Of a stretch of 64,000 bases of DNA, positions 1 to 2,081 are shown piece by piece. A program made the position numbers. Source of the stretch: Pocillopora damicornis (taxonomy: Eukaryota). Position 1 is the stretch's first letter. Each line of letters begins with the position of its first letter. The DNA lies in contig NW_020845264.1 in NCBI RefSeq assembly GCF_003704095.1, forward strand, positions 1,426,001-1,490,000, in the 5' to 3' direction.

Positions 1-2081
1 CGAGTTCATATTTTGCAGCCTATTTCAATATTCTCTTTCTTAGCCACACTTATTCATCCTTGGTTCATTATTCATACTTCTCTTGGGTGTTTTTTTCTGT
101 TTTGCTGAACAAATATTTTATGGTCTCCTTCATGTTACTCAGTACTGATTTCAATTTTGAAATTGCTGATTTAATGAAATTTTCAAAGCTTTCTCTTCTG
201 CTGATCTATTCGGAAAGGATCTGTTTCTTTAATGGTATCGATCAATTTGCATTTACCGATTTGATAGATAAACTAGAGATGTAGATGAACTGGCCTGCAA
301 ATCGAACTGTACCGCGCAGAATGTATAATAATATACCGGTCCGCGAGGGCGCTTTTCAGAAAAAAGCCTGACTTCTTATTTTACATGCCAAAATTTGAAC
401 AGAAAAACTTCGTGGATCTTTTGAAATAATGATAGATTTTACAACTGGAATAATCAGTTCCAAATTTAACGAGAGACCATTGCGTCAAATGTTTTGACTC
501 CAGAATTAATCACTGTATTTTTAAAGACATTTTATACGAGTTTTATTTTCACTCACCAAGTCACAAATTATAGAAATCCGGGCAAAAAAAAGGAAAAAAC
601 AAGAGGATTTCAACCTTTTTCGAAGAAACCGAGCAAATGGCTTTTCGGATAGCTTTTGTTTTTTCGTCGGAGTAGCAAATTGTATTTAAAATTATTTAAA
701 TCATGGTTTGACATCTTTGCTAAGCTTTAGCTAATAAGGTCCCGAATTTGCATATGCTGGTGTACGCATGTGTGATCTGAAGCCATATGTTTTATAATTT
801 GAATTGGAGAAAAACTATACACGAAAAATTTGCGGACCTTAGCGATCGATCAAAAAAAATGCTTCGACCCGATAATCTCGGATTAAATTTGGAAATTCAT
901 CCCGATGCTTTGGTGATGAATCAAGCGAGCAGAGCCGGTAAGACACCTGAAGAAAGCCGAATTTTGAAGGCAAAAGATTACAAACTACCCGTGTTTACCA
1001 GATATCGCGAGGGTACCTGCAAAGACGTTTTTTATTTCGTTCAAGTTGTGGCTCCAAAGTTCGGCCACGACGCACATCCCGAAGAAAGCTGTGATGCGGA
1101 GAAACGCCTTTTAGAAAAAGTCATAAATGCTCTTAACGACATGAGACCTAAACCGAGATTTTTACTCGTACATGGAAATTACACGAATGCATCACCAAAC
1201 GATAAAGAATATTTCCCGCAGATAGAGAGTTTTAAGTCAGCATTTGAAAATTTAAGCGCGGAGATTCCTGTCGTGTGTGTTTGTGGCCCAACAGACTGCG
1301 GTAATCCACTGACATTGGACGGCGTCGATGCGTATCGGAATACTTTTGGCGATGACTGGTTTGCCTTCTGGGTTGAAGGAGTTCAGTTTTTAGCCATGAA
1401 TACCAGTTATTACAAAGACGTGAACGCCGATATGGAGAGTTTTAAAACAGATCAACAGGAATGGCTTGAATCAAAGCTGTTGGAAGCACAAGTAAACCCG
1501 CCAAAACAAATCGTTCTTTTGCAAACCACTCCATGGTTTCGCAAATCTATAGATGAGGAGAGCAATGCAGACAACATTGATTTAAACACGCGCCAAGAAA
1601 TCGTTCCTAAACTCATAGAAGCCAACGTGAAATACGTTTTCACTGGTAATTTGAATGGCTTCGGGAAGGACAAGGAATTACATATAGTTCAAACAAGTTC
1701 TTTAAGAAAAACAAATGAGGTGGAAAATCTAGGTTTTCGTGTTGTCAAAGTCGAACATGAGGGAGTTGTACATAAATTTTTTTCTTTGGACAACTCCCCA
1801 ACAGATCTAAATTTAGAATTTTAATAACTATTGCTTTTTGCAGCTGCAACCGCATTCAGATTGCGATGTAATCCGATAACTCAAAAGTTAGAGGCTAGAA
1901 TCAGGTTCTAAAAGAATTTCACAACCACTAACTTTGTCCACTAGAGAGAGAAGAATATTTCAGACACTTTTATTATATTCATTCTGCTGGCCTAAAGCGA
2001 TTAATCAATGAAAAGAAGCATTTCAAAGGAAAGAGCATCAGAAGTCAAATATTTGCTGCGGGTCACATACAGGTATCGAAT

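What the first reader, a model, noticed from the sequence alone, without database searches (positions are those of the whole stretch)
787..1824. Intact CPPED1-like gene with all five metallophosphoesterase motifs degraded: candidate pseudo-phosphatase
Calcineurin-like phosphoesterases use the motifs D-x-(H/Q), GD, GNHD, H and GHxH. The aligned positions here read VAPKFG (D lost), HGNY (D to N), CGPTD (NH lost), LQTTP (H lost) and TGNLN (both H lost). The scaffold residues between motifs remain CPPED1-like and the ORF is open for 345 aa. There is also an approximately 75-aa N-terminal extension. Coordinated loss of ligands with a preserved fold argues for a non-catalytic role such as scaffold or substrate trap rather than decay. 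The single-exon structure raises the possibility of a retrocopy origin.
Basis: partly seen in the sequence, partly recalled or inferred. Interest (0 to 1): 0.65.

Follow-up and report, generated by a model that had tools for sequence, protein, structure and literature searches.

The report
Dead CPPED1-like phosphatase in corals
A stony-coral gene related to the phosphatase CPPED1 has lost its metal-binding active site yet has stayed intact across corals and sea anemones, so it most likely works as a non-catalytic binding protein beside a normal CPPED1 gene.

Summary
Window 787..1824 (+) is one open frame of 345 codons. Its nearest active relatives are CPPED1 phosphatases.

It is not a decaying copy. 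It belongs to a clade of 24 sequences (SH-aLRT 98). Named members come from Pocillopora, Stylophora, Desmophyllum, Exaiptasia, Actinostola and Nematostella. All 24 share a two-residue deletion in motif V, and nearly all have lost the ligands; 28 of 28 canonical CPPED1 keep every one.

Intact canonical CPPED1 exists in the same genera or species. The AlphaFold model keeps the metallophosphoesterase fold.

Constraint has moved. The former motif blocks are among the least conserved. A predicted-disordered N-terminal tail and a helix at residues 225-238 are the most conserved.

The gene is intronless, while coral canonical CPPED1 appears as two half-ORFs on genomic contigs. That fits an old retrocopy.

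Best reading: an ancient non-catalytic CPPED1 paralogue acting by binding, with the partner unknown. No paper on it turned up in my searches. Public records name it an active phosphatase. Expression and dN/dS were not testable here.

The parts
787..1824 (+). Whole open reading frame, 345 codons plus the stop at 1822-1824. It is intronless.
   Evidence: tblastn finds this single copy only in the window.
859..861 (+). Second in-frame ATG (M25). Probable true start, giving a 321-aa protein. It has A at -3; the first ATG at 787 has C at -3.
   Evidence: Most orthologues begin at the aligned ML. The 321-aa form P0179 equals residues 25-345. The Stylophora record aligns from residue 25. Sequence context is read.
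859..954 (+). Residues 25-56: family-specific N-terminal tail. Predicted disordered, with one short helix at 39-48, yet among the most conserved parts of the family.
   Evidence: 10-residue block means of pLDDT are 44-64 over residues 21-60. Block conservation is 0.89-0.91 at residues 35-64 and 0.84-0.89 at 35-74 in matched sampling. Canonical proteins are mostly gapped here.
955..1821 (+). Residues 57-345: metallophosphoesterase-fold domain.
   Evidence: 10-residue block means of pLDDT are 87-98 from residue 61 on. Foldseek hits SMPDL3A, purple acid phosphatases, GpdQ and Rv0805 at E 9e-11 to 1e-7.
1036..1065 (+). Motif I remnant, residues 84-93. The ligand Asp is Ala89 and the Gln/His is Lys91.
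   Evidence: Asp is kept in 1 of 24 family rows and Gln in 1 of 24; canonical rows keep both in 28 of 28.
1171..1182 (+). Motif II remnant HGNY, residues 129-132. The bridging Asp is Asn131.
   Evidence: Family rows read N 19, D 4, G 1 of 24. Canonical rows read D in 28 of 28.
1282..1296 (+). Motif III remnant CGPTD, residues 166-170. The Asn ligand is Pro168 and the catalytic His is Thr169. Gly167 and Asp170 are kept.
   Evidence: Asn is kept in 0 of 24 and His in 1 of 24. Canonical rows keep both in 28 of 28.
1459..1500 (+). Residues 225-238: end of the long helix and the following loop. This is a family-specific conserved patch and a candidate interaction surface.
   Evidence: Block 225-234 scores 0.90 in the family and 0.72 in hexacoral canonical proteins. 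E228, S229, L232, E233, Q235, V236, N237 and P238 are at least 90% conserved in the family and differ from the canonical majority. The helix spans 214-236 in the model.
1519..1533 (+). Motif IV remnant LQTTP, residues 245-249. The ligand His is Thr247.
   Evidence: His is kept in 0 of 24 family rows (T 11, S 8, N 3, G 1, D 1). Canonical rows keep it in 28 of 28.
1642..1656 (+). Motif V remnant TGNLN, residues 286-290. The first His is Asn288. The second His is removed by a two-residue deletion shared by the whole family.
   Evidence: The first His is kept in 11 of 24 rows. The deletion is present in 24 of 24. Canonical rows read GHxH in 28 of 28.

Best explanation
This is an old, intronless paralogue of the Ser/Thr phosphatase CPPED1, which belongs to the class III phosphodiesterase branch of the calcineurin-like metallophosphoesterases.

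It arose no later than the common ancestor of stony corals and sea anemones. It lost the two-metal active site early, and it has been kept by selection since, next to a normal CPPED1 gene.

Shown here:
- homology to CPPED1
- the ligand losses
- a predicted intact fold
- conservation as an open frame in many species
- a shift of conservation away from the old pocket, towards an N-terminal tail (residues about 32-76) and a helix/loop patch (residues 225-238)

Inferred:
- It does not hydrolyse phosphoesters.
- It works as a binding or adaptor protein. The dead domain serves as a stable platform, and the conserved, predicted-disordered tail serves as the partner-binding element. This is how VPS29 uses the same fold as a scaffold.
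- It may have begun as a retrocopy.

My odds: non-catalytic and selectively maintained, about 0.85. Acting mainly through the tail and helix surfaces rather than the old pocket, about 0.5. Retrocopy origin, about 0.5.
For: ORF and motifs. The window protein keeps 0 of 7 ligand or catalytic residues.

Family-wide retention over 24 rows: motif I Asp 1, motif I Gln 1, motif II Asp 4, motif III Asn 0, motif III His 1, motif IV His 0, motif V first His 11, motif V second His 0. Canonical rows keep all in 28 of 28, and 8 further relatives in 8 of 8.

Single origin: the 24 rows form one clade (SH-aLRT 98, stem 0.45), with a coral subclade and an anemone subclade. The motif V deletion is present in 24 of 24.

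Named members: Pocillopora verrucosa, Stylophora pistillata, Desmophyllum pertusum, Exaiptasia diaphana, Actinostola sp. and Nematostella vectensis.

Intact paralogue in the same taxa: Nematostella, Exaiptasia, Actinia, Actinostola, Pocillopora damicornis, Montipora and Acropora. Their motifs are intact.

Fold: mean pLDDT 87, pTM 0.82. All listed Foldseek hits are metallophosphoesterase-fold proteins. The profile search hits purple acid phosphatase at 7.6e-9.

Constraint shift, Pocillopora versus Exaiptasia: the family scores 73% in the tail (32/44) and 51% in the core (136/265). The canonical pair scores 55% (12/22) and 69% (190/275).

Constraint shift, matched 8-versus-8 sampling: motif blocks score 0.59-0.79 in the family and 0.89-0.99 in canonical rows.

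Intron contrast.

VPS29 precedent: passages of PMC5748213.
Against: No expression or protein evidence was available.

No nucleotide sequences of orthologues could be fetched, so dN/dS was not computed. Selection is inferred only from intact, conserved ORFs.

No partner is known.

Some members keep single ligands: GD in 4 of 24 and the first His of motif V in 11 of 24. At least 13 of the 24 family rows still reach Pfam Metallophos at E<=0.01, since 49 of 60 rows matched and 36 rows are outside the family. The domain is degraded, not unrecognisable.

Polar residues (T/S/N) replace the two His at positions 169 and 247 in 21 and 22 of 24 rows. A different, metal-poor chemistry is therefore not formally excluded.

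The family evolves about twice as fast as the canonical gene. Path length from Pocillopora to Exaiptasia is about 1.06 against 0.48, summed by hand.

The tree places the clade outside all canonical CPPED1, probably through long-branch effects. The time of origin is open, because the AU test does not reject a hexacoral origin (p 0.129).
Confidence: 0.7

Rival explanations
1. Young or decaying pseudogene: a dead retrocopy of CPPED1 whose frame happens to be still open.
For: The gene is intronless, all motifs are lost, and there is no Pfam match. No expression evidence was seen here.
Against: Intact full-length orthologues at 47-81% identity occur in 24 sequences, from at least six named coral and anemone species, with the same motif V deletion. 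Chance of an open frame is 4.5e-11. Eleven near-identical 345-aa variants carry 1-4 substitutions and no stops. Conservation is strongly patterned.
Confidence: 0.02
2. Still an enzyme. The pocket has been rebuilt for a different reaction or a different, possibly single-metal or metal-free, mechanism.
For: The pocket stays polar. T/S/N occupy positions 169 and 247 in 21 and 22 of 24 rows, Asn131 in 19 of 24, and Asp/Glu170 and Asn290 are conserved. K/R occupies position 91 in 14 of 24.
Against: No replacement ligand set is conserved. Position 168 takes ten different residues and position 288 seven. The motif blocks are among the least conserved parts of the protein. All 36 active relatives examined keep the full signature.
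Confidence: 0.1
3. Phospho-substrate trap or decoy. The dead pocket still binds CPPED1's phosphorylated substrates and shields them from the active paralogue.
For: It coexists with the active paralogue in the same taxa. The domain surface is broadly kept, with 35 positions conserved at 90% or more in both groups.
Against: In this superfamily the metal ions position the substrate's phosphate (introduction of PMC8366450). The metal ligands are gone, and the pocket is poorly conserved.
Confidence: 0.1
4. Direct regulator of the active CPPED1 paralogue by heterodimerisation, as some dead phosphatases pair with active relatives (recalled).
For: Both genes are retained together in corals and anemones.
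Against: Human CPPED1 was found monomeric in solution (PMC8366450, section 3.2). No ancestral dimer interface is therefore expected.
Confidence: 0.08

Closest known systems
CPPED1 (CSTP1), the active Ser/Thr phosphatase of animals
   Same: It is the nearest sequence family: 30-39% identity and phmmer E down to 2.9e-42. Domain length and predicted fold are the same. Scaffold residues between the motifs are shared, with 35 positions at 90% or more in both groups.
   Different: The class III signature D..GD..GNH[E/D]..H..GHxH, which defines CPPED1 (PMC8366450), is absent. There is a two-residue deletion in motif V. The conserved N-terminal tail is extra. The gene is intronless. The family forms a separate clade beside a true CPPED1 orthologue in the same taxa.
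VPS29, the retromer/retriever subunit
   Same: It has a metallophosphoesterase fold with an incomplete catalytic site, used as a protein-interaction scaffold through conserved surface patches (PMC5748213 passages). It is the best functional analogy.
   Different: There is no specific sequence relationship. VPS29 is universal in eukaryotes and its partners are known. This family is known only from hexacorals, its partner is unknown, and its most conserved element is a disordered tail that VPS29 lacks. VPS29 was not among the listed Foldseek hits.
Pseudophosphatases of other folds (STYX, inactive myotubularins); recalled, not tested here
   Same: They are catalytically dead paralogues kept beside active ones, and they act by binding.
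   Different: Their fold and chemistry are unrelated (cysteine-based). They are named from memory only.
Class III phosphodiesterases, purple acid phosphatases and SMPDL3A/B
   Same: They are the nearest solved structures by fold and by profile.
   Different: All are active two-metal enzymes. Identity is 8-15%.

Membership tests
Calcineurin-like metallophosphoesterase superfamily | The metallophosphoesterase (calcineurin-like) fold | tested here: met
   The AF2 model has pLDDT 87 and pTM 0.82. 226 PDB matches have E<=0.001. All listed matches are metallophosphoesterase-fold proteins, the best being SMPDL3A 5fc7 at E 8.9e-11.
Calcineurin-like metallophosphoesterase superfamily | Match to Pfam PF00149 (Metallophos) | tested here: not met
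   The window protein has no match even at E<=10 or E<=0.01. Across alignment A2, 49 of 60 rows match.
Calcineurin-like metallophosphoesterase superfamily | Signature D..GD..GNH[D/E]..H..GHxH that binds two metal ions (PMC8366450) | tested here: not met
   0 of 7 ligand or catalytic residues are kept in the window protein.
Calcineurin-like metallophosphoesterase superfamily | Metal-dependent phosphoester hydrolysis | not testable with these tools
   Needs recombinant protein, activity assays and a metal analysis.
CPPED1 orthologue group | CPPED1 proteins are the closest active relatives | tested here: met
   Public records of the family carry the CPPED1 name.
CPPED1 orthologue group | Falls inside the canonical CPPED1 clade as the species' orthologue | tested here: not met
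   It forms a separate clade (SH-aLRT 98). The canonical cnidarian clade holds other genes from the same taxa. Where the family branches off is unresolved (AU p 0.129).
CPPED1 orthologue group | Complete class III PDE motif and Mn2+-dependent dephosphorylation of AKT/PAK4 | tested here: not met
   The motif is absent. Activity is not testable here.
Pseudoenzyme (pseudophosphatase) | Homologous to an enzyme family but lacking its essential catalytic residues | tested here: met
Pseudoenzyme (pseudophosphatase) | Maintained by selection and not decaying | tested here: met
   Intact conserved ORFs across 24 sequences, with patterned conservation. dN/dS was not computed, because no orthologue DNA was available.
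Pseudoenzyme (pseudophosphatase) | Expressed as a protein and shown to be inactive | not testable with these tools
   No expression data or assays were available. Paper searches found nothing.
Retrocopy (processed paralogue) | Intronless while the parent gene has introns | tested here: met
   The window gene is one ORF. In three clusters, canonical coral CPPED1 on genomic contigs appears as N-terminal pieces (about residues 1-150 to 1-178) and C-terminal pieces (starting at 141-170). Full-length forms occur only on short contigs. The intron is inferred from ORF fragments and was not read in DNA.
Retrocopy (processed paralogue) | Poly(A) remnant and target-site duplications | tested here: not met
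   There is no A-run of 8 or more within 1701-3500. No convincing flanking direct repeat was found. This is expected if the event is very old.

The most novel reading that the evidence does not exclude
Hexacorals carry a dedicated non-catalytic CPPED1 decoy or adaptor. Its conserved disordered tail and helix patch recruit components of the PI3K-AKT/PAK pathway, which is the pathway of active CPPED1 in humans (PMC8366450). This would tune cell survival signalling, with possible bearing on symbiosis or stress responses. The dead domain would be a newly evolved signalling scaffold specific to this animal lineage, born as a retrocopy before corals and anemones split.
Probability: 0.12. Interest if true: 0.7.

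Novelty: new member of a known kind. Interest (0 to 1): 0.42.

Why it matters
Public records name these proteins 'serine/threonine-protein phosphatase CPPED1', although the catalytic machinery is gone. Pathway reconstructions and expression studies in corals and in the model anemones Exaiptasia and Nematostella may therefore count a phosphatase that is probably not one.

It also offers a clean natural example of a dead enzyme in the metallophosphoesterase fold. Constraint has visibly moved from the active site to a new tail. An active paralogue is available as an internal control, and genetically tractable hosts exist in which to find the partner.

Tried and rejected
- Pfam on the window protein found only a chance-level GFO_IDH_MocA hit at E 0.19.
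- phmmer against PDB with the single protein found only E>1 hits.
- ESM Atlas on residues 25-80 gave one bacterial hypothetical cluster at 0.75, below any useful level.
- Complex prediction was run on the canonical Pocillopora-cluster CPPED1 (P0327) with the window protein 25-345. The verdict was 'no answer' (scores 0.00, 0.00; controls not run; the tool did not use my alignments). It counts neither for nor against binding.
- The bacterial promoter/terminator scan of 1-900 is not applicable to an animal genome and was no better than shuffles.
- A search for retrocopy scars found none.
- I had thought of citing GAP50 as a dead relative. A paper I read calls it an active acid phosphatase (PMC4256932), so it is cited only as a fold hit.
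- I first suspected that stony corals lack canonical CPPED1, because no named coral appeared. One search rejected this by showing Pocillopora, Montipora and Acropora records inside unnamed clusters.
- Paper searches for a described dead CPPED1 found nothing relevant. CPPED1+pseudophosphatase gave 0. CPPED1+coral gave 5, none appearing relevant from titles and abstract openings. Metallophosphoesterase+pseudoenzyme gave 0. CPPED1+cnidaria gave 0. The long protein name plus Stylophora gave 0. Six accession numbers gave 0.
- Genome contigs (bacteria and archaea only) was not used, as it cannot hold coral loci.

Full report
**What is there.** Window 787..1824 on the + strand is a single open frame of 345 codons ending in TAA. 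At the window's base composition a frame of this length has a chance of 4.5e-11. The window is AT-rich animal-like DNA with two runs of N far from the gene; I left those alone. Nothing suggested human sequence. The gene is one ORF, so no spliced model had to be joined.

**Identity.** The protein itself is in the public collection letter for letter, and also as a 321-aa form starting at the second ATG. It differs at 2-3 of 345 residues from Pocillopora verrucosa records named 'serine/threonine-protein phosphatase CPPED1(-like)'. It is 89.7% identical to a Stylophora pistillata record that aligns from residue 25.

**Family searches.**
- Pfam finds no family for the window protein.
- phmmer against PDB finds nothing significant.
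- The word-index search found 26 proteins. One is 99% identical and 23 are 47-81% identical, including Actinostola and Nematostella records. Two are canonical Metallophos proteins at 32-34%.
- The exhaustive search found 958 proteins at E<=0.001. There is a sharp gap between the family (281 bits or more) and canonical CPPED1-like proteins (161 bits or less).

**The motifs.** The class III phosphodiesterase signature that defines CPPED1 is D..GD..GNH[E/D]..H..GHxH (PMC8366450, passages read).

I counted over A2, which holds 24 family rows, 28 canonical metazoan rows and 8 further relatives. Two of the family rows come from one 90% cluster.

| Position | Family rows keeping it (of 24) |
|---|---|
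| Motif I Asp | 1 |
| Motif I Gln | 1 |
| Motif II Asp | 4 |
| Motif III Asn | 0 |
| Motif III His | 1 |
| Motif IV His | 0 |
| Motif V first His | 11 |
| Motif V second His | 0 |

The second His of motif V is removed by a two-residue deletion in all 24 rows. All 28 canonical rows and all 8 further relatives keep every one of these residues. The glycines of the motifs, Asp/Glu170 and Asn290 are kept. In one search I examined 85 of the 175 proteins then held (ids up to P0110, 280-460 aa). All 23 family rows lacked motifs I, III and IV.

**Not a pseudogene.** I built a quick IQ-TREE tree of 72 rows chosen from the proteins held. P0002 was left out as a near-duplicate, and P0019 was used without its unrelated first 215 residues.
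- The 24 family rows form one clade (SH-aLRT 98, stem length 0.45).
- Inside it are a 15-row subclade holding the window protein and the cluster with a Desmophyllum record, a 6-row anemone subclade (Nematostella, Exaiptasia, Actinostola), and three unplaced rows.
- The loss and the deletion therefore predate the split of stony corals and sea anemones, and the frame has stayed open since.
- Eleven near-identical 345-aa variants differ from the window protein at 1-4 residues, with no stops.

**An intact paralogue coexists.** Canonical CPPED1 with PF00149 is on record for Nematostella, Actinia, Exaiptasia, Actinostola, Xenia and Hydractinia. Inside unnamed clusters it is also on record for Pocillopora damicornis, Montipora and Acropora. 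These rows have complete motifs. None lies in this window.

**Where the family branches off.** The tree puts the family outside all canonical rows, weakly joined (78) to a second degenerate group. This looks like long-branch attraction. An AU test does not reject a tree that holds the family together with hexacoral canonical CPPED1 (log-likelihood difference 26.06, p 0.129). The duplication may be hexacoral-specific or older.

**Fold.** AlphaFold2 on A2 (60 rows) gives mean pLDDT 87 and pTM 0.82. From residue 61 on, 10-residue block means are 87-98. Over residues 1-60 they are 41-64. Foldseek against PDB returns metallophosphoesterase-fold proteins only among the listed hits: SMPDL3A, GAP50, purple acid phosphatases, GpdQ and Rv0805, at E 8.9e-11 to about 1e-7. 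A profile of A2 hits purple acid phosphatase at 7.6e-9. No CPPED1 structure appeared among the matches.

**Where the constraint sits.** I compared Pocillopora with Exaiptasia.

| Pair | Residues 32-76 | Residues 77-345 |
|---|---|---|
| Family | 73% (32/44) | 51% (136/265) |
| Canonical | 55% (12/22) | 69% (190/275) |

With matched sampling (8 family rows against 8 hexacoral canonical rows), block conservation is as follows.

| Block | Canonical | Family |
|---|---|---|
| 125-134 (motif II) | 0.95 | 0.79 |
| 165-174 (motif III) | 0.91 | 0.62 |
| 245-254 (motif IV) | 0.89 | 0.62 |
| 285-294 (motif V) | 0.99 | 0.59 |
| 225-234 (helix patch) | 0.72 | 0.90 |

The family's best blocks are 35-74 (0.84-0.89) and 225-234. 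Forty-five positions are at least 90% conserved in the family yet differ from the canonical majority. Twenty-three of them lie at residues 34-74, and eight at 228-238. The tail at 25-56 is predicted disordered, with one short helix. Overall the family evolves about twice as fast as its active paralogue. Path length is about 1.06 against 0.48, summed by hand. Identity is 54% against 68%.

**Gene structure and origin.**
- The window gene has no intron.
- In three canonical clusters (one with a Pocillopora record, one with Acropora records, and the unnamed P0332 cluster), ORF fragments on large genomic contigs fall into two sets. N-terminal pieces reach about residue 150-178, and C-terminal pieces start at 141-170. 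Full-length forms sit only on short contigs. This fits an intron near codon 150 in the parent.
- Family members are full-length on contigs of 0.4-2.3 Mb.
- This fits a retrocopy origin, but intron loss is not excluded. No poly(A) remnant or target-site duplication survives.

**Start codon.** Most orthologues begin at the ML aligned with M25, which has A at -3. The first ATG has C at -3. The 24 upstream codons are weakly conserved only with the Desmophyllum-cluster sequence. I take M25 as the likelier start.

**Mechanism.** Active CPPED1 needs divalent cations, and in this superfamily the metals position the substrate's phosphate (PMC8366450). With no ligand set left and a poorly conserved pocket, catalysis and phosphate-dependent trapping are both unlikely. 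The conserved tail and helix patch point to partner binding. The dead domain would be a platform, as in VPS29, which has a metallophosphoesterase fold with an incomplete catalytic site and works as a scaffold (PMC5748213 passages). The partner is unknown. A complex prediction with the active paralogue gave no verdict, so it says nothing either way. Human CPPED1 is monomeric.

**What is known.** Six paper searches found nothing on a dead CPPED1 or on these accessions.

**What stayed unchecked.**
- Expression was not checked.
- The taxa of the unnamed family members were not identified.

**Verdict.** This is a real, conserved, catalytically dead CPPED1 paralogue of hexacorals. It is mislabelled in public records as an active phosphatase. 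It is a new member of the known class of pseudophosphatases, and of moderate interest.

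Noticed in passing
Proteins P0036, P0049, P0063, P0078 (not in the window): A second, separate group of CPPED1-like proteins also has degraded motifs. Motif II reads GG (SG in P0078) instead of GD, motif IV reads QD instead of QH, and motif III is lost. They form their own clade (SH-aLRT 100). Taxa are unknown. One cluster-mate is a EukProt record. This may be an independent loss of catalysis in the same family.
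   Followed up: partly
Public records of the family: The records from Pocillopora verrucosa, Stylophora pistillata, Exaiptasia diaphana and Desmophyllum pertusum are named as CPPED1 phosphatase or phosphoesterase, although the ligands are absent. This is probably name transfer by similarity.
   Followed up: yes
window 946-957 and 1078-1089: The same 12-base word occurs twice (11 of 12 bases matching) and encodes PEES both times, at residues 54-57 and 98-101. P54, E56, P98 and E99 are each conserved in at least 90% of the 27 rows of alignment A1. P54 and P98 are family-specific.
   Followed up: no
window 4112-4753 (-): A complete proteasome beta-3 subunit (PSMB3) lies in one uninterrupted ORF. 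It matches Pfam Proteasome at 4.6e-44 and aligns end to end with PSMB3 chains of solved 20S proteasome structures at E 1.9e-107. It is a second intronless gene about 2.3 kb from the finding, on the other strand.
   Followed up: partly
P0019 (Actinostola sp. record, 532 aa): This gene model joins about 215 unrelated N-terminal residues to the family domain. It is probably a fused annotation of two neighbouring genes.
   Followed up: no
window 15575-16057 (-), 18960-19409 and 20082-20855 (-), 24323-24751 (+), 40986-41483 (+): Exon-like ORFs match an F-box domain, a major-facilitator transporter (two pieces), an MGAT5-like N-terminal domain and a galactosyltransferase domain. The F-box ORF lies just before the N run at 16177-16276.
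   Followed up: no
window 48291-49517 (+): This 408-aa ORF is the longest in the window. It has no Pfam match at E<=0.001 and no PDB sequence match at E<=0.01. It is unexplained.
   Followed up: partly
window 52617-52689 (+) and 35418-35490 (+): A tRNA-Thr (anticodon GGT) is found by both ARAGORN and Rfam. It lies 87 bases after the N run at 52431-52530. A weaker tRNA-like match is found by Rfam only (34 bits).
   Followed up: no
window 2085-2117: An (AT)n microsatellite of about 33 bases lies in the probable 3' untranslated region of the gene. The first poly(A) signals after the stop are at 2405 (ATTAAA) and 2630 (AATAAA).
   Followed up: no
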